A stretch of DNA of 64,000 nt from Candidatus Doudnabacteria bacterium (lineage in GTDB: Bacteria > Patescibacteriota > Doudnabacteria > UBA920). The translations under genes and the position numbers were made by a program. The notes beneath the pieces were generated by a model that worked only from the letters and a program-made list of their open reading frames with translations, did not search any database and was not told where the DNA came from. This document shows positions 19,901-33,586 of the stretch, piece by piece. Each line of letters begins with the position of its first letter. Within the stretch, counting starts at the first letter, position 1. The DNA lies in the NCBI GenBank assembly GCA_020850635.1, contig JADZEH010000032.1:11421-75420 (forward strand), in the 5' to 3' direction.

Positions 19901-20911
19901 GCTGGTCAGACCGTAGCTACAATAAAGGGTTCTGGTGTTGGCGCCACTGCGTACTTAGTTCACACTGATCACCTCACTGGGTCTAGTGCTGTAACTAACA
20001 GCGGCGGTACGCTTGAAGAATTGATGGATTACTTCCCATTTGGGAATATTCGTCTCGACCAAAAAGTAGGAAGTTTTGATGAACAGCGTAAATACACGGG
20101 GCATGAGTATGACGTGGATACCGGACTTTCCTATATGGAAGCGAGGTATTATAATCCAAATATCGGAAGATTCCTTAGCCAAGATCCGGTCTTTCTTGCT
20201 TTGGGAAATGAAGAGGGAGTACAACAGAAAACCCAACAAGAATTACAAGAAATATTATCTGATCCTCAGTTATTGAATAGTTATTCTTACGCACGAAATA
20301 ATCCGTTAGCCTACATTGACGAAAACGGAGAGTGGCCATCTTGGAGTCAAATCAAAACTGGCTTCCAGACAGCATGGAATGTAGCCAAGCCGTTTGTACA
20401 GAACAAGATCAACCAAGTACAAAACTCTTGGAACTCATACAATGCTTATATGGACACTCCCGAGGCGCAGCAGAAGTCTCGAGATGCAGCAATGGGTGGT
20501 ATGGCTTACCTTGGACCTATTGGCGGAACTGATAGATACTTTGGATTCGGAGTAGGAAGTATTAATTCTGTAGGTAGTGGCGTGAACCTAACGTCCAGAG
20601 GAGCACTCCATATACAGAAGGGTCATACTTTATCTGGCCAAGCGCCGGGTAATAATAAAAGTTACTTCTTTAATGATGTTGATTATAAAGGTATAATAAC
20701 TAAGTATGGCAATCAAGCTAAGGGTGCAATTCAGGGCAATGGCAATGTGCAAAGAATTCTTGATATGGGCCGTCCAGTAGGATGGGATGCTACTACCGGT
20801 GGAGCAACTTCATTTATGACTATTATTACCGATAAAGCAGGTACTGTAATTACAAGCCATCCTGGCTTACCAACAACAATCAAAGCTATAGTTAAAACCA
20901 TTAAAAAGTAG
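13973..20911 (+). CDS. RHS/YD-repeat polymorphic toxin (TcB/TcC-like), 2312 aa, secreted
   Basis: Signal peptide, then an acidic Pro/Glu-rich linker. An SpvB-like N-domain follows (YEYPIVMPEGRLGMTPAVSLKYNSQ). Several FG-GAP/VCBS-like Asp-rich repeats come next (DINGDKYPDLL, DINEDGKNDIVF, DLDADGY..DVNNDGLKDY, DVNGDGLLDY). A long YD-repeat shell contains many YxYDxxGRL units (YTYDDLGRLL, YDALGRL, YTYDDLNRLL). A non-YD domain of about 170 aa is inserted at about aa 1640-1800 (...YNELRIISSEY..., DNRLRE-like). The RHS core is YTGHEYDVDTGLSYMEARYYNPNIGRFLSQDPV...YSYARNNPLAYIDENGE. A C-terminal extension of about 190 aa, Cys-free, is of unknown family. Confidence 0.9.
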   Translation: MKRTQYLGLRRLVVSFLVFLVIVMPLRPVFAQEVEASVPVTTEPVQQEPQAISEPEPTSMADETPIPTEQADELGTDKTEAPIGDEDPVSEEAVVKEDEPKPEEEVAKIFGGTQGVGLQFKIPSEPQNSVDESTGALIYEYPIVMPEGRLGMTPAVSLKYNSQNITKVDSIVGLGWELTIPYIQRERAKGVEGIYTKANFVTSFSGNLVPTTDISSSPYTVYYSEVDDGSFQKHTFNSDNTWTMTDKSGRVYTFGATAASRQDNPVDTSQVYKWMISKISDVHGNEIQYSYTKDNGQIYPSQIVYTYHSTSPAIHNVSFTYNSPSSYGATTYNAAFPVVTSKVLATIDVTTTAINGVSTNSYSLVNTNAQFIKQKLVTRIDRSYTSTITESVPYSESTSFSYSTKTPGWQQGTHSLEGYLVRNSDYIYKDIFTADFDANGFTDVLISHHDIPSQKYNRLMMNNGSTFTESSSAWSLPTHDLSSNAFIADINGDKYPDLLPRQSDPNPVYLNTGSGFSVDNSNNWKISTYVPEALICGANVGDSNSFDTNSFLHDINEDGKNDIVFFGGSSDFRVFLNNGNGFTLSNNYTFTPQSGANFTIPTVCTGDLDADGYQTLIDVNNDGLKDYFHVTHGTYLNTGSGFAYAASYQIDTAEMDRTGLGDVNGDGLLDYIGFKWTSGGNYCARLLFNDGNGFKQINPTNYPTNCDNSGVWDFSNLSYTGGNSSFFGTLMDLTADGLPDIVGRFSSYDIRGKVRAVNDGVSSWVNNSNAGDQWVDVIAPSYGKYFDINSDGVLDFITPLTSWGYGTMPASMTYMGKPSIPNRLTQITNRLGAQTVVDFDTAPTDLYDRDSAPMPVVKKITTQNLGSGQPDMVTQYDYEKGHYSTNPLTSQVKFAGFSKVTATESGIDLTPLRVTDTYFHQGDNSDSGNSEYQDHISKIGKAYRIEIKDGSGNLYSKTLNTWEHDQIYEGRDFVKLAQTMEFSFDGNTNHRDKAVSYEYDNFLGNTTKRIDWGEVTGSADGTFTDVGNDKIVTDLIYATGSSHDVVEMISSEISTDQSLNKVSETHYYYDNLSLGSIDKGNETKVEKWKSGSDYINEQKAYNSLGLVTQTTDPRGKNLVYAYDSHNLFPATVTNHLSQATQYQYHYFFGKPLQVTDVNNRVFKTLYDGAGRIIEQREPDLSNPTALVSKFVNTYSTFAGGELTRHVEYMSASEYIDSYTYSDALGREVQQRLATEDSGNYRVNDKAYDALGRLQKESSQYFSSGDAKTVATTTTNLYTTTSYDPLDRVTAIANNIGIITNTFDDWTTTVTDARGKVKVLYNDARGNLVKVDESNSGAVYTTNYEYNSNNNLVKITDALGNVRNFTYDALGRRLTAQDLHAPTDVTFGTWTYTYDNNGNITSVVDPNNQTINYTYDDLGRLLTEDFTGQSETELTYTYDSGTDGMGRLSSVVSPGANTSYLYNAHGGVKQEIKTINSTSYQTDYTYDRQGNQLEITNPDGSKVKYTYNFGGQLETVQRKETTDTSFINVVNDFDYGPHGKITLQVNQNGSQTSNIYDATKLYRLSSKITTISGGSKVQGLTYSYDNNSNITQAVDNSNTNSVKTVAYTYDDLNRLLSSTATGVAAGQSTYTEVYSYDAIGNILTKATTVGGGATINTTYSYAGSAGSSYANPHAVTSISDGINTTNFTYDNNGNMIGEGSKTFAFDYNNRMTQSVGVSGSGPTTVSFNSLAGDGAIYHQSSSWDTAHDASVGSYASFTVNNFYVRAGKNTSTSNRIERGFLPFDTSSLPDSANITSAKLKVYVYSKLNNDNDGTDWVTVTQATQPSTTVLTTGDYDLAGSINNPVEGVDAGQRKDITNVSVGGYLTFDLNVTGRGWVNTSGSTKLSLREGHDATDSAFVGTSGQYNELRIISSEYTGTSVDPILEVTYGSAPQVVTTNYKYDHTGQRVSLSNGTKTDVYPSADYNTDGTTPVKHIFGAGQTVATIKGSGVGATAYLVHTDHLTGSSAVTNSGGTLEELMDYFPFGNIRLDQKVGSFDEQRKYTGHEYDVDTGLSYMEARYYNPNIGRFLSQDPVFLALGNEEGVQQKTQQELQEILSDPQLLNSYSYARNNPLAYIDENGEWPSWSQIKTGFQTAWNVAKPFVQNKINQVQNSWNSYNAYMDTPEAQQKSRDAAMGGMAYLGPIGGTDRYFGFGVGSINSVGSGVNLTSRGALHIQKGHTLSGQAPGNNKSYFFNDVDYKGIITKYGNQAKGAIQGNGNVQRILDMGRPVGWDATTGGATSFMTIITDKAGTVITSHPGLPTTIKAIVKTIKK

Positions 20912-20914
20912 TAT

Positions 20915-21226
20915 ATGCAACATATAGGAATTGAAATTGATAATGAGACATTTAGCAAAGAAAAAAGTAGTGAGAATAACTTTGCTAAGGTATTAGGGTA
21001 TGTGTGGGAGAATACTCAGAAAGAAGATTATCCGTGGATATGGGGCATAGATGCTTATGGTTTAACAGTATTTAATATTCAGCAAACCCCAAATCTCGTA
21101 AACGAGTTATCAAAACTGAAAGATAAAGTGCAAGAAGAAGATATTAAAGCAGATATTCAAAGTTTAATAGACTTTATTACAGAGAATATGGAGCAGCACT
21201 TATATTTAAAGTTTATTGGAGATTAA
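20915..21226 (+). CDS. putative immunity protein for the RHS C-terminal toxin
   Basis: 103-aa acidic protein. It starts 4 nt after the RHS stop and has no signal peptide. This is the usual position of the cognate immunity gene. Confidence 0.5.
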   Translation: MQHIGIEIDNETFSKEKSSENNFAKVLGYVWENTQKEDYPWIWGIDAYGLTVFNIQQTPNLVNELSKLKDKVQEEDIKADIQSLIDFITENMEQHLYLKFIGD

Positions 21227-21294
21227 TAGATTATAGATTGGTAAAGCAAACCACTCCGCACTATGTGCGGAGTGGTTTGACTCATGCAGAGCTT

Positions 21295-21678
21295 ATGGAT
21301 AAAAAGAAATATGTAATTGATGGAAATAATTTCGACACCTTAGAAGGGTTTTATGATGAGGTAAGTAATGTCTTAATCCCCGGTGCTTCTTGGGGAAGAA
21401 ACTTTGATGCATTTAATGACATATTATATGGTGGATTTGGTACCCCAGATGAAGGCTTTATCCTAATATGGAAAAATGTAAAGAGATCAAAGTCTGACTT
21501 GGGAGATACCGCAACCCTTAAATGGTTAGAAGGAAAATTGCATAATATTCATCCTTCAAATATACCGATATGGAAACAAAGAATAGCTATGCATAAATTA
21601 AGGTACGGCGAAACACTCTTTATGATACTAGTAGATATTATCTTAAACCATGAAGATATAGAGCTGAGATTTCAATAA
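21295..21678 (+). CDS. barstar-like immunity protein (barnase-inhibitor family)
   Basis: The tracked ORF begins at 21238, but a perfect hairpin (CCACTCCGCACTATGTGCGGAGTGG, 21251-21277) occupies its first codons, so the ATG at 21295 (MDKKKYVIDG) is the likely start. The block YVIDGNNFDTLEGFYDEVSNVLIPGASWGRNFDAFNDIL...ILIW parallels the barstar core (INGEQI..ISDLHQTL...LPEYYGENLDALWDCL...LVLEW). Confidence 0.6.
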   Translation: MDKKKYVIDGNNFDTLEGFYDEVSNVLIPGASWGRNFDAFNDILYGGFGTPDEGFILIWKNVKRSKSDLGDTATLKWLEGKLHNIHPSNIPIWKQRIAMHKLRYGETLFMILVDIILNHEDIELRFQ

Positions 21679-21681
21679 ATT

Positions 21682-21715
21682 AAAAACAGCTATCGTGATG
21701 TAATAGCTGTTTTTA
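21682..21715. terminator. bidirectional intrinsic terminator / left edge of the recombinase element
   Basis: AAAAACAGCTAT-CGTGATGTA-ATAGCTGTTTTT hairpin with A and T runs on both sides. It lies between the convergent barstar-like and recombinase genes. Confidence 0.55.
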
Positions 21716-23410
21716 ATTTGATTTTTTGCGGCCCATCCATTTATTCCCTCGTTTTATTTTACCTTCAATTTTGAATTGAATTGCGCTAGCATCAGATGTC
21801 TGATCGGGATCGTCGTATGCTTTTAGTTTTATTGGGATTGAGCCAATTACTTTCACTTCAGTGTTGTTATAAATTACTTCTTTAATGTAATCTTTTAAAA
21901 ATTCACGAGTCTTGTCGCTGTTGTTACAAAGATTTAATCTTGATCTTACTGATTCGCAATATCTTTTTATACTAGCTTCTATAACTTCTTCTTTATGAAG
22001 ACTAGGCACCTGATTAAGCAGCTTTGCTTTATTGACATTGTGATTAGTAAGTTCACTATCATAGCTTAAGCACCTTTTTACATATTCGGCTCTATTAATT
22101 TTACCGCTGGCATATTGATCAATTGTTTGTTTTCTTTTAGTAGCAAGATCAGCTATTCGCTTTCCATTCTCTTTCAGCTTAGATTCAATTTGTTTTCGGT
22201 TTTTCAATTGACCTACATTAGTAGTTAGGCATAACTCTAGTTTGCTCGAGTCAGTCATGCTTTCTTCGATCATATTCATTACGCAAGTGTCTAGTAGCTG
22301 AGTTAGTACCTCGGGATTGTTGCATCTCACCAACCCAGTATTCGCAGTTTGTGAATGCATTCGTTGTAAAGAAATTTGGCTACATCTGTAAGCAGTCTTA
22401 TGAAATATTTTATTTGGATCCGCAACTCTGCGCTTGTCTTTATAAGTCCGGAAGTATGAGGTGAAAAATCTACCACATATTCCGCAGTTAACTAAACCTG
22501 AAAGTAACTGTGTTTGCTTCGGGTTTCTATACTGTTCGCTGTTATATTTAATTCTTGCTTGTACCTTATTAAAAAGTTCCTGCGAGATGATCGCAGGAAC
22601 TTTCACTGGTATCCATTCAGATTTATTTTTGTAAACCTTCTTGCCGTACTTCAGTCCTCTTAGGGGACTATTTGGCTCTTTCACATAAGATCTCGTATTA
22701 TAGTATTTAATTCCGGTATAAGTGTGGTTTTGCAAAATGTTTTTTAGTTTAGAGGTATCCCAAAGTTTTCGACCCATCTTAGTAATAGCACCAATATTTT
22801 CCAGAGTTCGCACTAATTTTGCCCAACTAAATCCAGCAGCGTAGCTTTTGAAAATATATCTAACTGTTTTCGCTTCCTTTTCATTGATTATAAATTTACC
22901 TGGCTGAGTGTCGGTTCTGCGAATATATTCATACCCTAAAGCATTGTAACCGTAGTTTAATGGGATGCCTTGCCGTAGCTTGTGTAGCTTTCCTCGCTGG
23001 CTGCGTTCAATAATTTTAGCTCTTTCTAATTCTGATACTGCACCAAGTACTGTTAAGGTAAACTTGTTCTCAGGGTTATGGATGTAATCTTTGCCATTAA
23101 TTATTATTTGCTTTTTGTATTTGAGTATTTCCGCGATAATTAAGTTTTGGTAAGTAACATCTCTGGCTATGCGATCTGAATTTAAGAAGTAGATAGTATC
23201 AAACAGGGGAGTCTTAAGATCACTGCGTAGCTGATCAAGTGCAGGTCTGTCGATCTTGGCTCCACTATACCCATCGTCAATGTATTCTTTCGTTAACACA
23301 TCGCCACTTTTAGAAACTTGCTTTTTAAGTTCCTCAATTTGGCTTTCAATGGTTCGCTCTTTTTCTTGCAGAGCTGTACTTACTCTGGCATAGATCGCTG
23401 CTTTCTTCAT
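21713..23410 (-). CDS. large serine recombinase (resolvase/invertase catalytic domain + recombinase domain + zinc ribbon)
   Basis: 565 aa. The N-terminus MKKAAIYARVSTALQ carries the catalytic Ser. A long recombinase domain and a Cys-rich ribbon (CGICGRFF...C) follow. It overlaps the upstream paralogue by 4 nt (ATGA). Confidence 0.85.
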   Translation of the reverse strand: MKKAAIYARVSTALQEKERTIESQIEELKKQVSKSGDVLTKEYIDDGYSGAKIDRPALDQLRSDLKTPLFDTIYFLNSDRIARDVTYQNLIIAEILKYKKQIIINGKDYIHNPENKFTLTVLGAVSELERAKIIERSQRGKLHKLRQGIPLNYGYNALGYEYIRRTDTQPGKFIINEKEAKTVRYIFKSYAAGFSWAKLVRTLENIGAITKMGRKLWDTSKLKNILQNHTYTGIKYYNTRSYVKEPNSPLRGLKYGKKVYKNKSEWIPVKVPAIISQELFNKVQARIKYNSEQYRNPKQTQLLSGLVNCGICGRFFTSYFRTYKDKRRVADPNKIFHKTAYRCSQISLQRMHSQTANTGLVRCNNPEVLTQLLDTCVMNMIEESMTDSSKLELCLTTNVGQLKNRKQIESKLKENGKRIADLATKRKQTIDQYASGKINRAEYVKRCLSYDSELTNHNVNKAKLLNQVPSLHKEEVIEASIKRYCESVRSRLNLCNNSDKTREFLKDYIKEVIYNNTEVKVIGSIPIKLKAYDDPDQTSDASAIQFKIEGKIKRGNKWMGRKKSN

Positions 23411-25119
23411 AATTTTTCAATTACTAATTTCCCATATTCCTTCTTTGGAATTTCTTTGCCGTTAATGGTTTGATCATCTGTATTTAATTGCTTCACTCTA
23501 TTCAGTGCTTCTATTCGGTTGATTACTTGTTCAATCTTGAATTCAATTGGAACTGTTTCATCTTTTGAGACTTCAATCGCAATAGCACCTATCAGTTTGA
23601 TTTTGTCATCGGATTTGCCGTTTTTGCGGTATTCCACCTTGGCGATGTAGTCCAGTAAGAATTGTCGTTTAGAATTAAAATCTCCACATCTAGTAAATTG
23701 AGACTTTAAAGTTTTACAGTATTGTTCAGTACTCGCTTTGATAACTTCCGGTTTTTGAAATAGAGGTAGATATTTTAATAATTCAGCTCGCTTAGTTTGC
23801 AGGTTGCCAACTTCTTCATCATAGATAGAGATTCTCTTAACATATTCTTCTCGTTCCAAATCCCCAAAAGAGTAGAGATCAATTATCCGTTCTTTTTGTT
23901 TGCTAACTGTTTTGATTTTACTCTCCACATCTTTAATCTGTTTATCTAGTTTAGATTGATTCTTTTGATTATTGCCTAAGCTAATATAATTTCGGAGCTC
24001 ATTAGGTTTAAGTAATATACTCGTGACCATTTCAACTACCGTTGAATCTAGTACCCTGGTATCAATCTCAGGGTTATGGTTTATGCCTTTAGTTCTGCAT
24101 CGGTATACCGCTTTTTGATATAGCTTAATTCCAGACTTTCTTTCGACTTTGTAATACCTTCGATAGGCGAAGCATCTCAGTTTGCATTTACCGCAGAACA
24201 CTAGATTAGATAGTAGCTGGGTTCGCTGTGCATTTCTAAAACATTCATAGTTATATTTCATCCTTGCTTGCACTTGGTCAAATAATTTCTTTGGTACAAT
24301 TTGCGGTATTTTTATTCCAACCCATTCCGAGCGGTCTCTGTGGATTTTCTTGCCGCGCTTAGTTCTGCGGATTACATTTCCAACCGCATTCGTATCCGTC
24401 ATGGTATTGAAATACTTTGTGCCTGTATAGGTCTCGTTTTGTAGAATGTATTTTAGATGCCCATCACCAAGTTTGTTTCTTTGCTCTTTGGCTAGACCCT
24501 TCGTTTTTAGCTGTCTCGCTAATTCTTTCAGTCCAATATTTCCTTTTGCATACGTTTCAAAAATATACCTTACTATTTTTGCCTCGTGTTCGTTGATTGC
24601 ATAAGAGGGGGAAGAGTCTGTTGTTCTTGGCGTGTATATATAACCATAAATATGACAACCGTTGCTTAACAGATATCCTTGTTTTAATCTGTGCTGCGAT
24701 CCGCGCCTTGTTCTCTCTAACGTTTTAGCTCGCTCCAATTCTGATACCGCACCTAATACCGTGAGTGTGAATTTGTTTTCTGGGTTATTTACATAATCCT
24801 TCCCATTGATAATGATCTGCTTTTTGTAATGCAGAAATTCGCTGATAATAATATTCTGGTAAGTTACATCTCTGGCAATGCGATCAGCATTCAAAATGTA
24901 GATAGTCTGAAATCCCAGAGTTCTAATATCTCTCCTCAGGTCATTCATAGCTGGTCTATCCAGCAAGCATCCGCTGAATCCATCGTCGATGTATTTTTTT
25001 ACCAAAACATCCCCAGAAGCTCTAATTTGCCTTTTAAGCTCCGATATTTGGCTTTCTATAGTTCGCTCCTTCTGCTGGGCATCGGAGCTTACTCTTGCAT
25101 AAAATACTGCTCTTTTCAT
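23407..25119 (-). CDS. large serine recombinase (paralogue of the downstream gene)
   Basis: 570 aa with N-terminus MKRAVFYARVSSDAQ. It is about 60-65% identical to the 21713-23410 product over the first 150 aa (…IARDVTYQN.II.E.L.YKKQIIINGKDY.NPENKFTLTVLGAVSELERAK…). This is a tandem pair reminiscent of CcrA/CcrB-type two-recombinase elements. Confidence 0.85.
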   Translation of the reverse strand: MKRAVFYARVSSDAQQKERTIESQISELKRQIRASGDVLVKKYIDDGFSGCLLDRPAMNDLRRDIRTLGFQTIYILNADRIARDVTYQNIIISEFLHYKKQIIINGKDYVNNPENKFTLTVLGAVSELERAKTLERTRRGSQHRLKQGYLLSNGCHIYGYIYTPRTTDSSPSYAINEHEAKIVRYIFETYAKGNIGLKELARQLKTKGLAKEQRNKLGDGHLKYILQNETYTGTKYFNTMTDTNAVGNVIRRTKRGKKIHRDRSEWVGIKIPQIVPKKLFDQVQARMKYNYECFRNAQRTQLLSNLVFCGKCKLRCFAYRRYYKVERKSGIKLYQKAVYRCRTKGINHNPEIDTRVLDSTVVEMVTSILLKPNELRNYISLGNNQKNQSKLDKQIKDVESKIKTVSKQKERIIDLYSFGDLEREEYVKRISIYDEEVGNLQTKRAELLKYLPLFQKPEVIKASTEQYCKTLKSQFTRCGDFNSKRQFLLDYIAKVEYRKNGKSDDKIKLIGAIAIEVSKDETVPIEFKIEQVINRIEALNRVKQLNTDDQTINGKEIPKKEYGKLVIEKL

Positions 25120-25388
25120 ACCAACATTGATGACGCAGCTTCTTGATCTAGTCTAGGCCAGCTGTTGGTAACTTTCGACTTTACTTTAACTCCAACCCAA
25201 GCTAGGATGGACTGGATTATGCGCCCTAAATATCGTATAATTGCATTAACAACTTAATGCCTAACCCCTCAGGAATGAGGATATGGCGCTAAAACCTATC
25301 ACAGATACTGAACCCTCCGTTCAGCTACTGTGATAGGTCGTATCTGGAAACAGGTACGGGACCGCAAGGTCCATGCTGGCGGGGGGCT

Positions 25389-25997
25389 TTGTGTTTTCTG
25401 CCAGCAAGAAAGCCTATCACAAACATGGACAATCAATCTGCCTCACCAGAGGCAAAACAACCTTCCATTCTATGGAAGCGTATTAAGACTATCGCTAAAG
25501 GTATAGCTATTTTCATAGTCGTACTTATAGTTGCAGCTGTGTGGCAAAGTATGAATCAACCACAGTCACAAACGCAGTCGCAAGGCACGGCTCAACAAGC
25601 AGAAGAACCAAAAGAAGAACAAACTCCTGCTAAAGAACCTCCCGTTGAACCATTCAATATTGAAGTTACCAGTCAGATAGTCAAAAAAGTAGACGGCAAA
25701 TACCGCTACTTCTTTGACATCAGAAACAAAGACACTAAGAACTTTGAGGGAGCAGTGACTATTAATTTGCTAAGAGCAAATAACAGTAGGCTTGGCTCAG
25801 ATACGTTTACTACTACAAGAGCTATTGAACCTAATCTTGGTTTTGCTCAATACATTGAAATTAATTCAGGACCAATGCCGATGTTTGATTCAGAATCAGC
25901 AATTACTAAATTCACATACGAAGTGAAGATAGATAAGAAATCCGTGAAGAGCGGAGAAGGAGTTATTACAGATAAGTTTGAGAACTTAGATTATTAA
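25389..25997 (+). CDS. hypothetical secreted/membrane-anchored protein
   Basis: 202 aa. The likely start is the internal Met (MDNQSAS, about 25431). It has one N-terminal TM helix, then a Gln/Glu/Pro-rich linker and a beta-rich domain. Confidence 0.45.
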   Translation: MCFLPARKPITNMDNQSASPEAKQPSILWKRIKTIAKGIAIFIVVLIVAAVWQSMNQPQSQTQSQGTAQQAEEPKEEQTPAKEPPVEPFNIEVTSQIVKKVDGKYRYFFDIRNKDTKNFEGAVTINLLRANNSRLGSDTFTTTRAIEPNLGFAQYIEINSGPMPMFDSESAITKFTYEVKIDKKSVKSGEGVITDKFENLDY

Positions 25998-26560
25998 ATT
26001 GCATCTTCTTCCGTTTCTAGGCCACCAGACTCTAAATAACCTTTAACTGGTTTATCTGAGTATCTATCTTCATCATCTACATAATCAGGGTGAGTTGTAT
26101 CGTACCTATGAACTACCGCATTTGCAGCTCTAGTGAATAAATCAAAGACATTATCAATTTGCTCTTTAACTTCTTCTGTAACCTCTGGATGTTTGGCCTG
26201 TACCTTGAATTCATTAATCACAGTCCTGCGATCAGAAAATTTTGGATCACGACTCTTAAGCCAAAATATGGCAGCCGTCATATTGCCTTTACTCATTTCC
26301 TCAATGAGTTTTGATTGAGCAAGTTCATTAATAACCATAGAACCTTCACGGACTGCTTCTGTCGCAACTCTATCAAACTCAGCATCTTCCTCGCACCAGC
26401 GATAGTATGTAGACCTAGCTATGCCAACTTTCTTCACTGCTACTTGCACCACAGGCATCTTTAAAAGCACTTCTACTAATTGAAGTTTTTGTTCAGCGAT
26501 ACGCTTGGCAATCTTTTCTAGTTCCTTTTTATTCTTTGGAGTTTTGCTGGTCTTTACCAT
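25994..26560 (-). CDS. HTH DNA-binding protein, possibly a phage terminase small-subunit-like regulator
   Basis: 188 aa with the helix-turn-helix segment VGIARSTYYRWCEED and a charged N-terminus. Its context next to a phage-type methyltransferase suggests phage origin. Confidence 0.45.
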   Translation of the reverse strand: MVKTSKTPKNKKELEKIAKRIAEQKLQLVEVLLKMPVVQVAVKKVGIARSTYYRWCEEDAEFDRVATEAVREGSMVINELAQSKLIEEMSKGNMTAAIFWLKSRDPKFSDRRTVINEFKVQAKHPEVTEEVKEQIDNVFDLFTRAANAVVHRYDTTHPDYVDDEDRYSDKPVKGYLESGGLETEEDAI

Positions 26561-27893
26561 AGTCTTTATCGCTACTGATCTTAACCGCTTTAGAACCAGT
26601 TAACTTTTCCCAGCGTTTGATAATCACTTCAGTGTAAGTGGGAACTTTCTCCATTGTGTAGCAACGGCGAGCCATTTTCTCACAGGCTATGAGTGTACTG
26701 CCAGAGCCGCCATATGGTTCGACTACAAGCCCTCCGCGTTCAGTGAGTACTTTGATGTAGGGAATAAGGATTTCCACTGGTTTAGTACCAAAGATAATAC
26801 CTTGACCAGAAGACTTCTCGTCACTGGCTTTGTATTCAATAAAGTCAGTAGGACAAATCTTTTTACCTTTCTCATAGTTCTCCCAGTGCGGTTTTCCTGA
26901 AATGGCAAATAAAGCTGTTTCGTATTCTTCTTGAAGCAAAGCTTCTTCCTCAGCAGTATTAAGATGGGCATCGCCAGAAGTGCCAACCATAGCAATATCA
27001 TGCTTGTTAAAGAATTTATGTTTAGCTGCAAATCCTTGAGTACGATTGGGCAAGTGCCAGACAATCATGTTTTTCACTTTCCAATACTTTTCCATCTCAG
27101 ACCAAATGGTGCGAAGATTTTTCCAGTTCTCATATACGATGATACTGAAATCTTCTTTGGCGAATTTAGCAATGTTGGTCATCCAAAGCTCGGTGAAGTT
27201 ATCTGGCAATTCATCTGTTTCCATATACCTACGGTCGCGCTTCAAACCAAAGCCACTCTTGTCCTGACCTTTCTTTTTACCTTTCAGGTAATCCAAGATG
27301 TATGGCGGATCTGTTAAACACAAATCTGCTTTCTCGTTGTTCATCAAGCGGAGAAAATCTTTTTCAATGGTAGAGTCGCCGCACATCAGGCGGTGTTTGC
27401 CTAATTGATAAATATCTCCCTTTTGAACTTTCACTTCAGTGATATCCAACTTCTTGAGCTCTTTTTCCAGATCAAAGACTTCTGGATTTTCCTCAACAGC
27501 AAAGATCTCATCAAGTTCCTCGCTGATAAAGCCGATATCGCTCAGTAGCGATTCGTCAAAAGCAGAGAGGAGTTCCAAATCAAACTCACCACGGTTTTTA
27601 TTTAAGCGCAGGTTAAGTTCTTTTTCTTTTGTTTCATCAGGAATATTCAGATACACCACTGGTGCTTCTGTTTTCCCAAGTTCTTTTAATGCCGCAATGC
27701 GCATGTGTCCGCCGATGAGAATGTTCTTGCGGGTTTCTGCACTGTTCACGAGCAGTGCTTCTACTGTACCGAAGCGCTTAATGCTTTCCTTAAGCTGACT
27801 AAGTGCTTCTTTTGACCACTTGCGTGGGTTGTAGGTGGCAGTAATGAGCTCCTCAATTGGCACATACTGCACCTGAAGTTTTTCGTTTTTCAT
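26529..27893 (-). CDS. ParB-like nuclease domain fused to an N6-adenine/N4-cytosine DNA methyltransferase
   Basis: 454 aa. The N-terminal ParB/Srx-like segment is IEELITATYNPRKWSKEALSQLKESIKRFGTVEALLVN. The MTase motif IV is DPPY (LCLTDPPYILDY), and the C-terminal SAM-binding region is EPYGGSGST. This architecture is common in phage and plasmid orphan methyltransferases. Confidence 0.8.
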   Translation of the reverse strand: MKNEKLQVQYVPIEELITATYNPRKWSKEALSQLKESIKRFGTVEALLVNSAETRKNILIGGHMRIAALKELGKTEAPVVYLNIPDETKEKELNLRLNKNRGEFDLELLSAFDESLLSDIGFISEELDEIFAVEENPEVFDLEKELKKLDITEVKVQKGDIYQLGKHRLMCGDSTIEKDFLRLMNNEKADLCLTDPPYILDYLKGKKKGQDKSGFGLKRDRRYMETDELPDNFTELWMTNIAKFAKEDFSIIVYENWKNLRTIWSEMEKYWKVKNMIVWHLPNRTQGFAAKHKFFNKHDIAMVGTSGDAHLNTAEEEALLQEEYETALFAISGKPHWENYEKGKKICPTDFIEYKASDEKSSGQGIIFGTKPVEILIPYIKVLTERGGLVVEPYGGSGSTLIACEKMARRCYTMEKVPTYTEVIIKRWEKLTGSKAVKISSDKDYGKDQQNSKE

Positions 27894-28072
27894 GAACGTA
27901 AAGTTAATTATTTAACCTTTACAGTTCAATTTAAGTACAAGTTTAGTTCAGTCTTAGACAATTTAGGTACAAAAAAACCGCGAGCTGGGATAATCCAGTA
28001 TTCACAGTTAAGGTTCAAATAAAACAGTACTTAAAGTATATCACCATCGTCCTTTTATTGCCTGTGGAAAAG

Positions 28073-28081: not shown

Positions 28082-28122
28082 ATAGATATTTATTGTTTTT
28101 TCCAGCATAAATTTTATAGATT

Positions 28123-31100
28123 TTGAACCCTGATCAAGAACAAAATATTGGCTCTAATGAGCCAACCCCAGTTGAAGATTTGCTATCTTCTGCTTCAGAT
28201 AAGCAGAAGAAAATTAGAGATGCCTTAATTAACCTTGACCCTGAGTTTGGAAAAAGATTGTCCCAGGTTTATGAGGGTTTAATCTTAGGATTTAATTATA
28301 AAGTTAATCCTGAGAGAATACCACAAGTTTGTCATTCTGCAAGAGAGTTATCGTCGATTCTGCCCAGGTATTTTCCTGGACTTCCAATATTAGAGCGCGT
28401 TGATAATAGAAAAAATCCTGATGAACCTAGACAAAGAGAATTACTGAAAGGGATTTTAGGCAATCATCCTGAGCGAAGCGCTTTGCCTGAATACCTCCAA
28501 GAGACATTTGTAGATGAGTGGATGAATGTTCATGACTATTTTAATAAATATTCAAAACACGATGATATCAAAAATAAAAATGGTTTAGAAATTTCAGAAC
28601 AAGAATTTGAAGCTAATGTTTGGAAGTTTGAGGACCTGCTTTACAGAACTTTAGTTGAGATACCATTCTTTGATTCGCTGGATGAGATCGAATCATTGTT
28701 AAAAATAGAAAACCCTACTGATTCTAATGTAGCAACATTATCACAGCTCATCGCTCAGCCTCAACACAACAGATATTTTTTTGAAAAATGTAACAACCCA
28801 GAATGGTTGGCACCTCTTAATAAAAGAGGGGCCTTTTCTAAACCCCAAGAGCCCCTTAAGCAGGATGGGTATGTACGTTTTATAGGATGGCCTGAATCGC
28901 AGTACTTAGTTCGTATTGTAGACAGGAAATCAAACGAGGTCTACGAGATCATAAAAACCCTAGATTCAGAAAATCAATCTGTCTTAGATGATTTTATTGA
29001 TGCAGCACTTAAGTCTCCAGTAGAAATCGCTGCTAAGTACGTGGAGTTAATAATAAAGAAGAAGTGGTTACAGAATCCGTATAATCTTTTACTGCCAGAC
29101 AAGGTCGCGGAATTAATGGAAAAGTTAGCAGCGGCTGGAAAAGTTGACGAAGCAATAAAATTAGCTAGGGTATTATTTGATGTCCATATTGTAAAACCAG
29201 TCAGTGAAACAAACGAAGAAATTCCATTGTCATGGATTCGACCCGAAGCGAAGCCTTACTTTGATGAGTGGAGATACAAAGAAGTAATTACCAAGAAAAC
29301 AAAAGAGATTGCTAAAGCAAGCCCAGTTTTATTATTTCAAACTTTGGCTACAATCCTTCATCAAGCTTTAGATTTGGAAAAAAGAGAAAATGTATCTGAT
29401 GATTTTTATGAGTATTCCCACATTTGGAGACCAAACCTCGGGCATACTAGAAACCCTAATAGAGAAGATGCTAAAAACGTTTTAATCGACGGTTTGATTG
29501 AGTTAATCGAAAATAATAAAAATGACACTACAGTTATGGAAGGATTTGTGGAAATTTTAAGTAAACATAATCAAGGTTTCTTCAGAAGGTTGGAGATGTT
29601 TCTTCACCTGAATGCAACTGAGCCGCAAACCGAAGCAATTGAAAAATTGCTTACCGAAAAAAAGATTATTACTTCGTATAATCTAAGACGTGAATATTTG
29701 CCATTGTTAGAGAAGTTCTTCTCAACAATAACCTCTCAAGGACAAAATACAATTCTTGAAGCCATAGATTCAGGCCCCAATCTAACAAAAACAGATGATA
29801 CTACAACTGAGCAATTTGATGCTATGAATAACCGATGGCGTAGTATGTATTATGGGTCAATAAAACAGGTATTGCTTTCACCGCACAAAGAAAAGTATGA
29901 AGAATTGCAGATATTAACTGGTCCAGTAGTAATTGATGATGGAGAGCTCAAAGTTACCGGTGGGTGGATTGGGGACGAAAGTCCTTTGTCTATGGAAGAT
30001 ATGAAAAGTATGAAACCAGATAAGGTAATTGATTACCTGAGAGATTTCAAGGATTCAGGCGACTTTTCTGAAAGAATGTCTTCCTCGGGGTTAGGCATTA
30101 TTTTTGGAAATGTGGTTGCAGAAAATCCAGAAACGTACATTTCAGTTGCCGGTGATTTACTAAGTAACAAATTAAAACCACTGTACATCTATCATTTTTT
30201 GAATGGCATTAAGCAAACCCTAAAAGAACCTAGGGTTTTAGATTGGAAACCTGTTATTGATTTGTGCTACTCAATTATCTTCGTTAAGTCAGGGGAATCG
30301 CTTACGAAACCTGGTAATGACAGTGAACAAAATTGGGATTCTGTGCATATGGCTATTGCTGATCTTTTAGGAGCAGCTTTGGGTGATAAAAATACTTCCG
30401 TTTCAGTAGACTTACAAAGTCCTATTTGGGATATTATTTTAGAATTGACCAAAAATGAAGAACCTACTATTGAAGATGAAGAACGGGATAATGGGGGAAA
30501 CCTTGATCCTATGACTCTCTCAATCAATACTGTGAGAGGAGAGGCATTGCATGCAGTGGTTAATTATGCACTGTGGTTAGATAGGTTTAGCGTAGATATT
30601 AAAAAACTGGGATCGAAAATTCCTAAAATTGTCGAGGATGTATTAGATTTTCATTTAGACACTAACAATGATCCTTCGCTAGCAATTAGATCTGTTTACG
30701 GATGGAGACTGCCCAACCTGTCTTACCTAAGTATGGAATGGGTTAAGTCTAGAAAAGATAAAATTTTCCCAAAAGAAAAAGGATCAGAAAAATTATTTTT
30801 ATCTGCTTTTGAAAGTTATCTGACTAATAATGTGTACCATGATCTGTTCGATCTGTTTATCGAAGAGTATCGTATTGGTATATCTCTGCTTGGAACGGTC
30901 GAAAAGGAAGGATATCATGGCGCTGATATAAACGAAAAATTACCTCAACATTTAATGATTACTTATGTGCATGATGCTAAGCACGATGATCTTATTCGTC
31001 ATTTTTTTGATGTGGCGCCTGTTAAGTCTAGAATACAAGCTATTAATTTTGTAGGAAGAGTAATCTTTGGAGAACTATCAAAATTAGATAATCCTAAATA

Positions 31101-31521
31101 CGCAATTGAACGGTCACTAAAATTATGGGATGATAGACTATCCGCAACAAATGCAAATATTGCAGAAGAGTTACAAGAATTTGGGTGGTGGTTTAAGCGT
31201 AGCCCTTTCTCTCGTCAGGATAACATTACCAGACTTGTAAAAACTCTAGAGCTCACCAATGGTTTAATTGATGCTCCTTATGAGGTGGCAGAAGAACTTC
31301 AGGAGTACTCAGCAACCTTTCCTCTGGAAGTAATTACGGCCTTGTCATTAATTGCGCATGGCATAAAAGAAGGTCATGAGATTTCTTATAAAATGAATGA
31401 GTACAGAGAAATTATTACTAAAGTAAAAGAATCTGGTAATACAGAAGCAGTCAACAAAGCAAATGAATTAATAAACTATCTTGGTTCCAGAGGCTTCATT
31501 GATTTTAGGGATTTACTCTAA
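28123..31521 (+). CDS. large hypothetical protein (1132 aa), predicted soluble and helical, no recognisable domain
   Basis: The long ORF has a TTG start, and the first in-frame ATG is more than 100 codons in. It has no signal peptide or TM segment, and no Walker, HExxH, DEAD, GxSxG or Cys-cluster motif. It is rich in Leu, Glu and Lys with heptad-like stretches, consistent with HEAT/ARM or TPR-like solenoids. It is translationally coupled to the next gene (TAATG). Confidence 0.6.
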   Translation: MNPDQEQNIGSNEPTPVEDLLSSASDKQKKIRDALINLDPEFGKRLSQVYEGLILGFNYKVNPERIPQVCHSARELSSILPRYFPGLPILERVDNRKNPDEPRQRELLKGILGNHPERSALPEYLQETFVDEWMNVHDYFNKYSKHDDIKNKNGLEISEQEFEANVWKFEDLLYRTLVEIPFFDSLDEIESLLKIENPTDSNVATLSQLIAQPQHNRYFFEKCNNPEWLAPLNKRGAFSKPQEPLKQDGYVRFIGWPESQYLVRIVDRKSNEVYEIIKTLDSENQSVLDDFIDAALKSPVEIAAKYVELIIKKKWLQNPYNLLLPDKVAELMEKLAAAGKVDEAIKLARVLFDVHIVKPVSETNEEIPLSWIRPEAKPYFDEWRYKEVITKKTKEIAKASPVLLFQTLATILHQALDLEKRENVSDDFYEYSHIWRPNLGHTRNPNREDAKNVLIDGLIELIENNKNDTTVMEGFVEILSKHNQGFFRRLEMFLHLNATEPQTEAIEKLLTEKKIITSYNLRREYLPLLEKFFSTITSQGQNTILEAIDSGPNLTKTDDTTTEQFDAMNNRWRSMYYGSIKQVLLSPHKEKYEELQILTGPVVIDDGELKVTGGWIGDESPLSMEDMKSMKPDKVIDYLRDFKDSGDFSERMSSSGLGIIFGNVVAENPETYISVAGDLLSNKLKPLYIYHFLNGIKQTLKEPRVLDWKPVIDLCYSIIFVKSGESLTKPGNDSEQNWDSVHMAIADLLGAALGDKNTSVSVDLQSPIWDIILELTKNEEPTIEDEERDNGGNLDPMTLSINTVRGEALHAVVNYALWLDRFSVDIKKLGSKIPKIVEDVLDFHLDTNNDPSLAIRSVYGWRLPNLSYLSMEWVKSRKDKIFPKEKGSEKLFLSAFESYLTNNVYHDLFDLFIEEYRIGISLLGTVEKEGYHGADINEKLPQHLMITYVHDAKHDDLIRHFFDVAPVKSRIQAINFVGRVIFGELSKLDNPKYAIERSLKLWDDRLSATNANIAEELQEFGWWFKRSPFSRQDNITRLVKTLELTNGLIDAPYEVAEELQEYSATFPLEVITALSLIAHGIKEGHEISYKMNEYREIITKVKESGNTEAVNKANELINYLGSRGFIDFRDLL

Positions 31522-32114: not shown

Positions 32115-32133
32115 TACTAAATTTTGATTCTAA

Positions 32134-32496: not shown

Positions 32497-32763
32497 CCAG
32501 CCCTTTTTATACTGTCTCATTTGTCTCATTTTGGTGCTATACTAATCCTGAAAGCACATTCAAAATCTCTATATATTGTCTTCGGAGGATTGCAGGAATG
32601 GATCAACCCAAAATTCGGATTGCGAACCTCAAAAATGTCCTCACAGGGTCTCAAATTTCTTTCCAAGTTTGCGTTCTATGTCTCACTTTTACTCTTGCAG
32701 GAATGCGGAGCAGGTGAAGGGTAGTGTGGTTACGCAGGCTCAGAGCTAGATGCAGATACAGGC

Positions 32764-33585: not shown

Positions 33586-33586
33586 T

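What the first reader, a model, noticed from the sequence alone, without database searches (positions are those of the whole stretch)
21700..27900. Mobile element with two tandem paralogous large serine recombinases inserted into the RHS immunity array
Two large serine recombinases of 565 and 570 aa are about 60-65% identical at their N-termini and overlap by ATGA. They resemble CcrA/CcrB-like two-recombinase systems. They sit with a ParB-nuclease/DNA-methyltransferase fusion and an HTH protein, which suggests a phage- or ICE-like element. Its position between the main RHS locus and the orphan tip suggests it targeted or rearranged the toxin array.
Basis: partly seen in the sequence, partly recalled or inferred. 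Interest (0 to 1): 0.55.

Follow-up and report, generated by a model that had tools for sequence, protein, structure and literature searches.

The report
Mobile element that swaps RHS toxin tips
A 12.6-kb mobile element carrying two paired serine recombinases has spliced itself in frame into a giant RHS toxin gene of a candidate-phyla-radiation bacterium, giving that gene a new toxin end and immunity genes, which supplies the integrase-bearing vehicle long proposed for how RHS toxins acquire new tips.

Summary
Two intact large serine recombinases (LSR-A 570 aa, LSR-B 565 aa) overlap by ATGA and sit beside a ParB-methyltransferase fusion and an HTH protein.

The element is twice as large as flagged, and it lies inside the RHS open reading frame, not between genes. 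A contig from a 99%-identical strain (L199) is the empty site. There the RHS core runs straight into the window's "orphan" tip. The three-way alignment places the crossover on a 3-nt core, TAC, at window 20093-20095 and 32731-32733.

The 12,638-bp element supplies:
- RHS residues 2042-2312, which are the new toxin tip
- two immunity-like genes
- LSR-B and LSR-A
- a LOOT RNA (Rfam RF03000)
- a small-terminase-like protein and the ParB-methyltransferase
- a Dsr1-like defence gene

The former tip and its immunity gene are displaced downstream.

The same architecture recurs across candidate-phyla-radiation lineages. RHS sequence flanks 16 of 19 independent close loci, against 4 of 61 distant recombinase loci. 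LSR-A and LSR-B form co-diverging clades, the element-side att arm is conserved, and the cargo is varied defence genes.

I found no published description of this. It provides the "integrase co-occurring with Rhs" that Jackson et al. (2009) said was unknown. Recombinase catalysis, the heteromer model and the RNA's role are inferred, not shown.

The parts
13973..20095 (+). Host-encoded part of the RHS gene (residues 1-2041: signal peptide, FG-GAP/YD-repeat shell), up to and including the att core codon TAC (Tyr2041)
   Evidence: ORF. L199 bases 1-2766 match window 17432-20198 at 98.8%.
20066..20125 (+). attL: host B arm ...GATGAACAGCGTAAA, core TAC (20093-20095), then element P' arm ACGGGGCATGAGTATGACGTGG
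   Evidence: Three-way alignment A4 of the empty site, attL and attR.
20096..20911 (+). Element-encoded C-terminal 271 residues of the RHS protein: the conserved core-end motif (TGHEYDVDTGLSYMEARYYNPNIGRFLSQDP) plus a new toxin tip
   Evidence: This segment is absent from the empty-site contig L199 and is in frame with the host core. It has a weak Ntox50 match, E=0.033, below threshold.
20915..21226 (+). 103-aa gene directly after the toxin tip; candidate cognate immunity protein
   Evidence: ORF. Assignment is by position only; there is no family match.
21238..21678 (+). 146-aa Barstar-like immunity protein
   Evidence: Pfam Barstar, E=1.9e-9, 37.8 bits against a cut-off of 23.4.
21677..21719 (.). 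Perfect 17-nt inverted repeat with a 9-nt spacer between the convergent Barstar-like and LSR-B genes; likely a bidirectional terminator, not an att site
   Evidence: Repeat I19; sequence. It lies inside the element as defined by the empty site.
21713..23410 (-). LSR-B, a large serine recombinase of 565 aa
   Evidence: Pfam Resolvase (8.5e-25) and Recombinase (1.3e-19). It falls in the B clade of the tree.
23407..25119 (-). LSR-A, a large serine recombinase of 570 aa, overlapping LSR-B by ATGA
   Evidence: Pfam. PHROG integrase match 8e-77. A clade. The closest solved structure is the TP901-1 integrase catalytic domain.
25244..25401 (+). LOOT RNA (Rfam RF03000 core 25258-25372) with a conserved promoter-like TATAAT upstream and a 3' tail that forms a covarying pseudoknot followed by a U-rich tract
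   Evidence: Rfam 83.6 bits against a gathering score of 46.4. Own model R1 scores 153.7 bits. Promoter-like box. Pseudoknot helix: 96% of cells paired and 8 of 12 pairs compensatory.
25389..25997 (+). About 190-202-aa single-pass membrane protein downstream of LOOT (likely start ATG at 25425); variable cargo gene
   Evidence: ORF. No family match. The genes downstream of LOOT differ between elements.
25994..26560 (-). 188-aa HTH protein resembling a phage small terminase subunit
   Evidence: Pfam HTH_Tnp_1_2, 2.8e-6. PHROG 309 terminase small subunit, 3.6e-13. Homologues are found in 12 of the 19 independent close loci (the 18 relatives plus the window).
26529..27893 (-). 454-aa ParB_N + N6/N4 DNA methyltransferase fusion
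   Evidence: Pfam. PHROG 498, 1.8e-85. PADLOC MTase_II. It co-occurs with the recombinases in 12 of 19 close loci and 0 of 61 distant ones.
28123..31521 (+). 1132-aa Dsr1-like defence protein (cargo); it matches the Dsr1 body but not its SIR2 N-terminus
   Evidence: PADLOC Dsr1, 3e-46: residues 183-1127 against model positions 291-1215 of 1227. The N-terminus has only a weak pP_pnuc_1 match, E=0.017.
31521..32496 (+). Two small cargo genes, of 197 aa and 120 aa (the latter a membrane protein), probably working with the Dsr1-like gene
   Evidence: ORFs. Homologues of the 120-aa and 1132-aa proteins sit next to a related recombinase pair in L014.
32513..32532 (+). Conserved terminal repeat cluster TGTCTCATT x2, followed by an extended -10-like TGCTATACT; candidate outward promoter or operator at the element's right end
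   Evidence: It is unique in the window; 0.03 matches are expected by chance. It occurs once per element at the same end in L003, L007, L008, L010, L011, L015, L016 and L084.
32707..32760 (+). attR: element P arm GGAGCAGGTGAAGGGTAGTGTGGT, core TAC (32731-32733), then host B' arm GCAGGCTCAGAGCTAGATGCAG
   Evidence: Alignment A4; coordinates. The P-arm motif GGAGnnGGTGT is conserved in L003, L005, L007, L008, L011 and L016.
32731..33916 (+). Displaced original RHS tip (orphan; annotated ORF 32764-33585) and its 109-aa downstream gene (33587-33916); host DNA, outside the element
   Evidence: In L199 this sequence is fused directly to the RHS core. It is identical over 1663 nt apart from a 10-N scaffold gap.

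Best explanation
Window ~20096-32733 is a 12,638-bp integrative mobile element of a Candidatus Doudnabacteria genome. It inserted by conservative site-specific recombination into the coding sequence of a 2312-aa RHS toxin gene. The insertion point is the Tyr codon (TAC) of the conserved core-end motif K-Y-T-G-H-E-Y-D.

**Shown**
- The element is precisely absent from a 99%-identical strain.
- attL and attR share only TAC.
- Insertion is in frame. RHS residues 2042-2312 (core-end motif plus toxin), a 103-aa gene and a Barstar-like immunity gene come from the element. The former tip and its downstream gene become a promoterless orphan 12.6 kb away.

**Inferred**
- The co-transcribed paralogues LSR-A and LSR-B catalyse attP x attB. 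They probably act as a heteromer in which each paralogue reads one arm of a non-palindromic site. Their catalytic domains are 70% identical, but their DNA-binding C-terminal parts are only 31-44% identical.
- The crossover dinucleotide lies within TAC, probably the non-palindromic AC.
- The new toxin and immunity genes are expressed from the host RHS promoter.
- attL x attR excision would restore the old toxin.

**Other contents and likely spread**
The element also carries a small-terminase-like gene, a ParB-methyltransferase, a structured LOOT RNA upstream of a variable membrane-protein gene, and a Dsr1-like anti-phage cargo. It has no capsid, tail, replication or conjugation genes. It most likely spreads as a phage-satellite-like island or by transformation.

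**Family**
It belongs to a family found across candidate-phyla-radiation lineages that uses the same RHS motif as its attachment site. The family acts as a vehicle for "C-terminal displacement" of RHS toxins.
For: **Empty site**
- P0121 is 99% identical to the orphan tip and lies on contig L199.
- L199 bases 1-2766 match window 17432-20198 at 98.8%. L199 bases 2662-4324 match window 32731-34388 at 99.4%. The only differences on that right flank are a 10-N scaffold gap.
- Alignment A4 shows attB following attL up to ...CGTAAATAC and following attR from TACGCAGGC....
- Flanking similarity is too low for homologous recombination: about 45% to the left of the core and about 60% to the right.
- The fusion is in frame at codon 2041.

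**Recombinases**
- Both are intact with catalytic motifs.
- They fall into A and B clades with congruent topologies across loci.
- Divergence differs by domain.

**Family-wide pattern**
- RHS sequence flanks 16 of 19 independent close loci against 4 of 61 distant recombinase loci. Fisher p=1.4e-10.
- Main RHS ORFs stay intact through the junction in L006, L007, L009, L010 and L015.
- The P arm GGAGnnGGTGT is conserved next to element-adjacent orphans.
- In the alternative gene order (L011, L016) the orphan's motif lies 150-280 bp from the LSR-A start.
- L003 begins and ends in the RHS repeat.

**Horizontal transfer**
- The LSRs are 82-85% identical between this Doudnabacteria window and an Anderseniibacteriota genome. 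The adjacent RHS core-end is only 53% identical there, and the tips and immunity genes are unrelated.

**Cargo and context**
- Cargo varies: Dsr1-like, CBASS, a Thoeris TIR protein, KAP NTPase and a caspase.
- The window's flanks are housekeeping genes.
Against: - No experiment or read-level data show that LSR-A and LSR-B catalyse the event.
- No circular attP junction was found.
- Only one empty site was recovered. L199 is a low-coverage scaffold (coverage 0.58) with an N-run 280 nt from the junction, although the junction itself lies in contiguous sequence.
- A search for a second empty site failed.
- Some loci deviate. L006's far-side orphan carries a 297-aa core fragment without a P arm. 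L010 keeps only about 56 nt of RHS motif and no displaced tip. L005 has two tandem tips, each with a P arm.
- Three of 19 close loci show no RHS.
- No recombination directionality factor, replication module or transfer module was recognised.
- The toxin family of the new tip is not established; Ntox50 scores below threshold.
Confidence: 0.85

Rival explanations
1. The tip was displaced by RecA-dependent homologous recombination between the conserved RHS core-end sequence on a circular DNA and the chromosomal gene, as in the Jackson et al. 2009 model. On this view the recombinases are passengers, or serve another site.
For: - Both junction copies encode the same conserved motif and are about 80% identical over about 100 nt.
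- In L015 the two copies are about 95% identical over about 215 nt. In L002/L003 they are 97% identical over the 33 nt visible. Homologous exchange is physically possible in those loci.
- The published model invokes homologous recombination with circular intermediates.
Against: - In the window, the empty site switches partner exactly at a 3-nt core. The longest flanking identities are under 10 nt, far below what RecA needs.
- Left of the core the orphan copy carries a non-coding, stop-containing arm that is conserved between elements at the DNA level.
- The left edge of homology is sharp and sits at a class-specific position in every locus.
- Recombinases of this family are linked to RHS in 16 of 19 loci.
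Confidence: 0.07
2. The region is a remnant of a complete temperate phage, a decayed prophage, that used the RHS gene as its attachment site. The toxin tip is an incidental moron.
For: - A small-terminase-like gene and a phage-type ParB-methyltransferase are present.
- Relatives L001 and L163 carry a large terminase.
- LexA/S24-type repressors occur in L003, L010, L015 and L165.
Against: - No locus examined has portal, capsid or tail genes between the two junctions. Where both junctions are defined, the span is 8-14 kb (12.6 kb in the window, about 10.4 kb in L003).
- IMG/VR holds no close relative of the recombinases.
- The recombinases, att arms and tip/immunity module are intact and conserved across phyla. 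That argues for a small functional element rather than independent decay to the same gene set.
Confidence: 0.06
3. The recombinase pair is a domesticated host system that switches RHS toxin tips among resident cassettes, a programmed variation system, rather than the integrase of a transmissible element.
For: - It is constantly associated with RHS arrays holding several orphan tips.
- Excision between attL and attR would switch the expressed toxin back.
Against: - The whole 12.6 kb, including the recombinases, is present in one strain and absent in a near-identical one.
- The recombinases are 82-85% identical across candidate phyla, while the adjacent RHS core-end is only 53% identical there.
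- The accompanying genes are typical mobile-element cargo: a methyltransferase, a terminase-like gene and defence systems.
- All tips share one orientation, so there is no inversion switch.
Confidence: 0.02

Closest known systems
CcrA/CcrB recombinases of staphylococcal SCC elements (e.g. SCCmec)
   Same: Both use two paralogous large serine recombinases encoded in tandem on a small non-conjugative, non-viral island. Both integrate at a short core inside the 3' part of a conserved chromosomal gene and keep that gene's reading frame. Both carry accessory cargo. (The SCC properties are from my own knowledge; the features of this element are.)
   Different: Sequence orthology to Ccr was not tested here. 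The target is an RHS toxin gene, not rlmH. The element replaces 271 codons with a functionally different end instead of merely restoring the gene. The hosts are candidate-phyla-radiation bacteria. This element also carries a terminase-like gene, a ParB-methyltransferase and a LOOT RNA.
C-terminal displacement of Rhs tips and orphan rhs-CT/immunity modules (Jackson et al. 2009, PMC2935791; Poole et al. 2011, PMC3150448)
   Same: The outcome is the same. An incoming tip joined to a short stretch of core sequence replaces the resident tip, and the resident tip stays downstream as a dissociated orphan with its immunity gene.
   Different: [quoted passage not shown] Here the tip rides on a defined element with its own serine recombinases and a 3-nt crossover core.
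Integrases that target the 3' end of tRNA/tmRNA or protein genes and carry a replacement 3' end in attP
   Same: attP contains a copy of the downstream part of the target gene, so integration leaves an intact gene and a displaced partial copy (own knowledge; the analogous geometry is shown).
   Different: The replacement here is deliberately non-identical: a new toxin and new immunity. Integration therefore changes the gene's function rather than conserving it.
Phage satellites (PICI-like islands) carrying anti-phage defence hotspots
   Same: The size is 8-14 kb. The element has an integrase, a repressor in some members, a small-terminase-like gene, and variable defence cargo: Dsr1-like, CBASS, Thoeris TIR and KAP NTPase.
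   Different: No replication or primase module and no capsid-remodelling genes were recognised, and no helper phage is known. The integrase is a serine-recombinase pair. Satellite status is a hypothesis only.
LOOT RNA motif (Rfam RF03000; Weinberg et al. 2017, PMC5737381)
   Same: The match is full length and above the gathering score, with the same four-hairpin core.
   Different: The family has no assigned function or genetic context in the sources I could read. Here it is placed inside a defined mobile-element family, and it shows an additional covarying pseudoknot helix just outside the Rfam model.

Membership tests
Large serine recombinase (serine integrase) | N-terminal resolvase catalytic domain with the serine nucleophile and conserved arginines | tested here: met
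   PF00239 matches at 8.5e-25 and 8.9e-23. YARVS and DRIAR motifs are present in both proteins. The closest solved structures are TP901-1 integrase and gamma-delta resolvase catalytic domains.
Large serine recombinase (serine integrase) | C-terminal recombinase domain plus zinc-ribbon domain | tested here: met
   PF07508 matches at 1.3e-19 and 2.6e-15. PF13408 scores 21-23 bits, just below its 25.3 cut-off, but the Cys motifs are present. Homologues carry PF13408.
Large serine recombinase (serine integrase) | Short att sites that share only a 2-3-nt crossover core, with no long direct repeats | tested here: met
   attB, attL and attR share only TAC.
Large serine recombinase (serine integrase) | Catalysis of attP x attB by the encoded protein(s) | not testable with these tools
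   This needs a recombination assay.
CcrAB-type two-recombinase system | Two paralogous large serine recombinases in one operon on the element | tested here: met
   ATGA overlap and 45% identity. A and B clades co-diverge.
CcrAB-type two-recombinase system | Both recombinases required, with different half-site binding | not testable with these tools
   This is only inferred, from the asymmetric att arms and from the stronger divergence of the DNA-binding parts.
CcrAB-type two-recombinase system | Integration into rlmH (orfX) and orthology with staphylococcal Ccr | tested here: not met
   The target is an RHS gene. Sequence orthology to Ccr was not tested. The resemblance is functional only, so this is not filed as a Ccr member.
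RHS/YD-repeat polymorphic toxin locus | Large YD-repeat core ending in the conserved core-end motif, then a variable toxin tip and a downstream immunity gene, with orphan tips | tested here: met
   A 2312-aa ORF containing the YMEARYYNPNIGRFLSQDP motif. RHS_repeat, TEN_YD-shell and SpvB domains are present in orthologous loci. Barstar-like immunity gene. Orphan tip.
Phage satellite (PICI-like) | Integrase, repressor, replication module, packaging-redirection gene(s), dependence on a helper phage | tested here: inconclusive
   An integrase pair and a small-terminase-like gene are present. A repressor is present only in relatives. No replication module was recognised. Helper dependence cannot be tested.
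Complete temperate prophage | Virion structural genes (portal, capsid, tail) between the att sites | tested here: not met
   No structural-gene matches among the element's ORFs. No close relatives in IMG/VR.
LOOT RNA (RF03000) | Score at or above the Rfam gathering threshold over the full model | tested here: met
   83.6 bits against a threshold of 46.4, model positions 1-121.
DSR1 (defence-associated sirtuin 1) | N-terminal SIR2 effector domain plus the large C-terminal sensor body | tested here: not met
   Only the body matches: model positions 291-1215 at 3e-46. There is no SIR2 match, and the N-terminus has a weak nuclease-like match. It is a Dsr1-like variant, not a canonical DSR1.

The most novel reading that the evidence does not exclude
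These elements are a lineage of satellite-like islands, spread across the candidate phyla radiation, whose main function is to write a new toxin-immunity module in frame into RHS genes. They would do this with an obligate LSR-A/LSR-B heterodimer that reads an asymmetric attachment site inside a protein-coding sequence. The pseudoknotted LOOT RNA would act as the element's own riboregulator. It might be a terminator/antiterminator switch or an immunity RNA that couples cargo expression, excision or packaging to a cellular or phage signal. On this reading, RHS tip diversity in these bacteria would be driven largely by site-specific integration rather than homologous recombination.
Probability: 0.3. 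Interest if true: 0.9.

Novelty: new variant of a known kind. Interest (0 to 1): 0.8.

Why it matters
**An open question about RHS toxins.** RHS and other polymorphic toxins diversify by swapping C-terminal tips. How new tips arrive has been open since the C-terminal displacement model. [quoted passage not shown] This locus gives a concrete, testable vehicle:
- a small element with its own serine recombinase pair
- a mapped 3-nt crossover
- an inferred attP
- a natural empty site

**A possibly useful recombinase pair.** The element performs a seamless in-frame gene fusion at a non-palindromic site within coding DNA. If the two paralogues do split the half-sites between them, they are a natural example of heteromeric site recognition. 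That is relevant to engineering serine integrases.

**Context for an orphan RNA and for candidate-phyla-radiation biology.** The finding gives the orphan LOOT RNA family a genetic context. It also shows that bacteria of the candidate phyla radiation, which have tiny genomes and poorly known mobile elements, exchange toxin, immunity and anti-phage defence genes on one shared platform.

Tried and rejected
**Boundary hypotheses rejected**
Only a perfect inverted repeat between convergent genes was found. It lies inside the element.
- A boundary right after the LSR-B stop, with the element in the spacer after the immunity genes. The empty site rejects this.
- The whole RHS gene as cargo of a larger element. 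This is rejected because L199 keeps the RHS core, and because the RHS core-end is far less conserved than the recombinases between the window and L001.
- The TGTCTCATT repeat cluster as the att site itself. No partner cluster exists at the other junction, and in the window the cluster lies about 200 nt from the crossover.

**Searches that gave little or nothing**
- IMG/VR search with the recombinase alignment found only distant hits of 35% identity or less.
- An exact search for the inferred attP junction in IMG/VR found none.
- The metagenome scan returned mostly short contigs; only L084 was useful.
- Exact-sequence look-ups of the 120-aa and 103-aa element proteins were not on record.
- A second empty site, sought with the L165 orphan tip, was not found.
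- Literature searches for LOOT and for recombinase-Rhs links found nothing describing this arrangement. The nearest statement is that XerC/D-type recombinases sit beside some polyimmunity loci (PMC3482391).
- The promoter and terminator consensus scan was uninformative: promoter-like sites were no more frequent than in shuffled sequence, and none of the terminator-like hits bore on the junctions.

**Unresolved**
- Toxin family of either tip. Ntox50 scores below threshold for the new tip. The orphan has no match, although a 51%-identical homologue carries an EndoU-type domain.

Full report
**1. Observation**

The window comes from a Candidatus Doudnabacteria genome of the candidate phyla radiation (CPR). 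LSR-A is 100% identical to an NCBI protein on a 77-kb contig. ORFs at 21713-23410(-) and 23407-25119(-) encode proteins of 565 and 570 aa.

Both carry Resolvase and Recombinase domains and a near-threshold zinc-ribbon match. Both keep the YARVS and DRIAR catalytic motifs. The genes overlap by ATGA.

| Residues | Identity between LSR-A and LSR-B |
|---|---|
| 1-150 | 70% |
| 151-300 | 44% |
| 301-570 | 31.5% |
| overall | 45% |

Next to the pair lie a 188-aa HTH protein that also matches phage small-terminase families, and a ParB_N + N6/N4 methyltransferase fusion.

**2.

Rfam finds a full-length LOOT RNA (RF03000, 83.6 bits against a gathering score of 46.4) at 25258-25372(+). It is divergent from LSR-A and sits upstream of a small membrane-protein gene. 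Beyond the methyltransferase, the 1132-aa ORF matches the body of the defence protein Dsr1 (3e-46) but not its SIR2 domain.

**3. The pair is a conserved, RHS-linked module**

Homologues of LSR-A are abundant in CPR metagenomes, and many occur as two hits on the same contig. I fetched contexts and mapped the window's proteins onto them by tblastn. The recurring architecture is:

- ParB-methyltransferase, then a small-terminase-like gene, then variable genes, then LSR-A and LSR-B
- the 3' end of LSR-B faces the C-terminal end of a large RHS gene, with 1.1-1.9 kb of tip plus immunity gene in between
- an orphan RHS tip lies on the far side of the cargo

After removing duplicate sequences there are 19 independent close loci, counting the window. 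The duplicates were L001=L004, L002/L003 overlapping, L006=L163=L164, L011=L165=L166 and L161=L162.

| Feature in the locus | Close loci (of 19) | Distant recombinase loci (of 61) | Fisher p |
|---|---|---|---|
| RHS sequence | 16 | 4 | 1.4e-10 |
| ParB-methyltransferase | 12 | 0 | 8e-10 |

A neighbour-joining tree gives an A clade, a B clade with congruent topology, and a third clade of single-recombinase elements. The duplication is therefore old, and both copies have been kept together.

**4. Where the element ends**

Two observations pointed to the conserved RHS core-end motif as the boundary. Contig L003 begins and ends in it. In an alternative gene order (L011, L016) the orphan's motif lies only 150-280 bp from the LSR-A start.

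The decisive result came from searching with the window's orphan tip. A 99%-identical protein (P0121) lies on contig L199.

- L199 bases 1-2766 match window 17432-20198, the RHS core, at 98.8%.
- L199 bases 2662-4324 match window 32731-34388, the orphan tip and downstream DNA, at 99.4%.
- The only differences on the right flank are a 10-N scaffold gap 280 nt from the junction.

In that strain the RHS core is fused directly to the "orphan" tip, and the intervening 12.6 kb is absent.

The three-way alignment shows the empty site following attL up to ...GAACAGCGTAAA-TAC. It then follows attR from TAC-GCAGGCTCAGAG.... The only sequence common to all three at the switch point is TAC, at window 20093-20095 and 32731-32733. 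Flanking similarity between the two junction copies is about 45% on the left and about 60% on the right, with no long identities.

This rules out an assembly collapse and makes RecA-type exchange very unlikely. It is the signature of a serine integrase. The inferred attP is GGAGCAGGTGAAGGGTAGTGTGGT-TAC-ACGGGGCATGAGTATGACGTGG.

**5. Consequence for the gene**

TAC is codon 2041 of the RHS ORF, and the fusion is in frame. Residues 1-2041 are encoded by the host. Residues 2042-2312 are encoded by the element. They comprise the core-end motif TGHEYDVDTGLSYMEARYYNPNIGRFLSQDP and a toxin domain.

The element-encoded tip is followed by a 103-aa gene and a Barstar-like gene. The tip itself has only a sub-threshold Ntox50 match. 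The earlier tip and its 109-aa downstream gene remain as a promoterless orphan.

So the element is not "inserted into the immunity array". It replaces the toxin end of the gene and creates the orphan.

**6. Generality of the site**

The element-side (P) arm next to orphans is conserved at the DNA level in other two-recombinase loci. It reads GGAG(C/A)nGGTGTnG, ending about 20 nt before a T(T/A/C)AC core, in L003, L005, L007, L008, L011 and L016. In the window it contains a stop codon, so this conservation is not coding.

The window and L001 have 82-85% identical recombinases, nearly identical P' arms and similar B arms (GAACAGCGTAARTAC). Their hosts belong to different candidate phyla, and their tips and immunity genes are unrelated.

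Single-recombinase elements (L010, L013, L015, L084) share the GGTGTnG arm motif. Their junction lies about 42 nt further downstream, immediately before xARYY.

Main RHS ORFs run intact through the junction in L006, L007, L009, L010 and L015.

**7. Nature of the element**

The flanks of the RHS locus are housekeeping genes. Between the att sites there are no virion, replication or conjugation genes.

Relatives add the following:

- a large terminase in L001 and L163
- LexA/S24-type repressors
- different defence cargo: CBASS, a Thoeris TIR protein, KAP NTPase and a caspase

IMG/VR holds no close relative. The best description is a small integrative island, possibly a phage satellite. Its route of transfer is unknown.

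**8. Proposed mechanism**

Steps shown by the data:

- precise presence/absence of the element
- a 3-nt crossover core
- an in-frame fusion
- conserved P arm
- co-diverging A and B clades
- stronger divergence in the DNA-binding parts of the two proteins

Steps inferred:

- LSR-A and LSR-B jointly catalyse integration. The attB and attP arms are not dyad-symmetric, which gives a reason to keep two recombinases with different DNA-binding domains but a similar catalytic core.
- AC is the likely crossover dinucleotide.
- The new toxin and immunity genes are expressed from the RHS promoter.
- Excision would restore the old toxin.
- A conserved TGTCWCWTT repeat cluster lies near the right end (window 32513-32532) and occurs once per element in nine loci. 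In several loci it is followed by an extended -10-like box. It may be an outward promoter for the promoterless tip and immunity genes in the circular form, and for the orphan after integration.

**9. LOOT RNA**

LOOT occurs inside 10 of the 19 close loci and in none of the 61 distant ones (Fisher p=5.6e-8). Its position within the element varies. It is always upstream of a variable ORF, usually one encoding a small membrane-anchored protein, and it has a conserved TATAAT box upstream.

On nine copies, a 3' tail just outside the Rfam model pairs with the apical part of hairpin 2. This 12-bp helix has 96% of cells paired and 8 of 12 pairs with compensatory changes. The Rfam inner stem has 65% paired and 1 of 6 compensatory. 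The helix forms a pseudoknot and is followed by a U-rich tract. The RNA's function remains unknown. A terminator/antiterminator leader or an element-specific small RNA are both possible.

**10. Comparison with what is known**

The closest functional analogue is the CcrA/CcrB pair of SCC elements: two paralogous serine recombinases on a small island that integrates in the 3' part of a conserved gene. Membership is not claimed, because the target differs and orthology was not tested.

The outcome matches "C-terminal displacement" of Rhs tips. [quoted passage not shown] The large survey of polymorphic toxins mentions only XerC/D-type recombinases beside some polyimmunity loci (PMC3482391). Full-text searches found no description of serine-recombinase elements targeting RHS genes, or of a context for LOOT.

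**11. Caveats**

- Only one empty site was recovered, on a low-coverage scaffold.
- No attP circle was seen.
- A second empty-site search failed.
- L006's far-side orphan has a long core fragment and no P arm.
- L010's attR has only about 56 nt of RHS motif next to HlyD and MFS genes.
- L005 has tandem tips each preceded by a P arm.
- Three close loci lack RHS.
- Catalysis, heteromery, the transfer route and the RNA's role are all untested.

**12. Verdict**

The finding is real and more interesting than first scored. It is a defined, recently mobile, 12.6-kb serine-recombinase element that performs in-frame replacement of an RHS toxin tip. It belongs to a family that spans CPR lineages and also carries the LOOT RNA and anti-phage defence cargo. 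I rate it a new variant of a known kind (serine-integrase islands), with interest 0.8.

Noticed in passing
window 25244-25401; alignment A5 of nine loci: The LOOT RNA has a conserved 3' tail (GCUGGCGKGRGGCUUUKUGUUU) outside the 121-nt Rfam model. The tail forms a 12-bp covarying pseudoknot with the top of hairpin 2 and is followed by a U-rich tract. This helix is better supported than the Rfam inner stem of hairpin 2 (96% against 65% of cells paired).
   Followed up: yes
window 32513-32532; L003 388-407, L007 2091-2110, L008 955-974, L010 5346-5365, L011 9803-9822, L015 3523-3542, L016 9815-9834, L084 5126-5145: A tandem 9-nt repeat, TGTCWCWTT x2, occurs exactly once per element. It is always near the end that abuts the displaced tip. 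Some loci have a third, inverted copy 20-30 nt away. Its function is unknown; it could be a promoter, an operator or a packaging site.
   Followed up: partly
window 28123-32496; L014 15350-18134: The 1132-aa cargo protein matches the Dsr1 body but lacks SIR2, and has a weak nuclease-like N-terminus. It is followed by 197-aa and 120-aa genes. Homologues of the 1132-aa and 120-aa proteins sit beside a related recombinase pair in a genome bin labelled Gammaproteobacteria. This suggests a portable three-gene defence module.
   Followed up: partly
L010 5080-5135, L013 ~21392, L015 ~3299, L084 ~4926: Single-recombinase relatives form a separate clade. Their junction with the RHS gene lies about 42 nt downstream of the two-recombinase crossover, right before xARYY. 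In L010 only about 56 nt of RHS motif remains at the far junction, next to host HlyD and MFS genes, and there is no displaced tip.
   Followed up: partly
L005 14809-16575: Two tandem RHS tips are each preceded by an element-type P arm (GAGGGTGTCGG...). They could come from nested or repeated integrations into an existing attR, or from an element carrying two tip cassettes.
   Followed up: no
L012, L013, L014, L017: Close homologues of these recombinases (43-58% identity) occur in genome bins labelled Alpha- or Gammaproteobacteria, without the ParB-methyltransferase. L012 also has a group II intron match at 15307-15445. This is either transfer beyond the candidate phyla radiation or mis-binned contigs.
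   Followed up: no
window 11331-13211, 34058-34855, 51143-51868: Three patches have much higher G+C (0.51-0.55, against 0.40 for the window). The first holds a B12-binding/radical-SAM-like gene with a long antisense ORF. The second holds a fatty-acid desaturase. The third was not examined. They are possibly recent horizontal acquisitions.
   Followed up: partly
L161 11692-14596: This is a decayed relative. LSR-B is broken into fragments of 469 aa and about 105 aa. The adjacent RHS tip has neither a core nor a P arm upstream. A 1763-aa Peptidase_S74/Ig-like protein lies nearby.
   Followed up: no
window 21677-21719: A perfect 17-nt AT-rich inverted repeat with a 9-nt spacer overlaps the stop codons of the convergent Barstar-like and LSR-B genes. 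It is probably a bidirectional terminator.
   Followed up: partly
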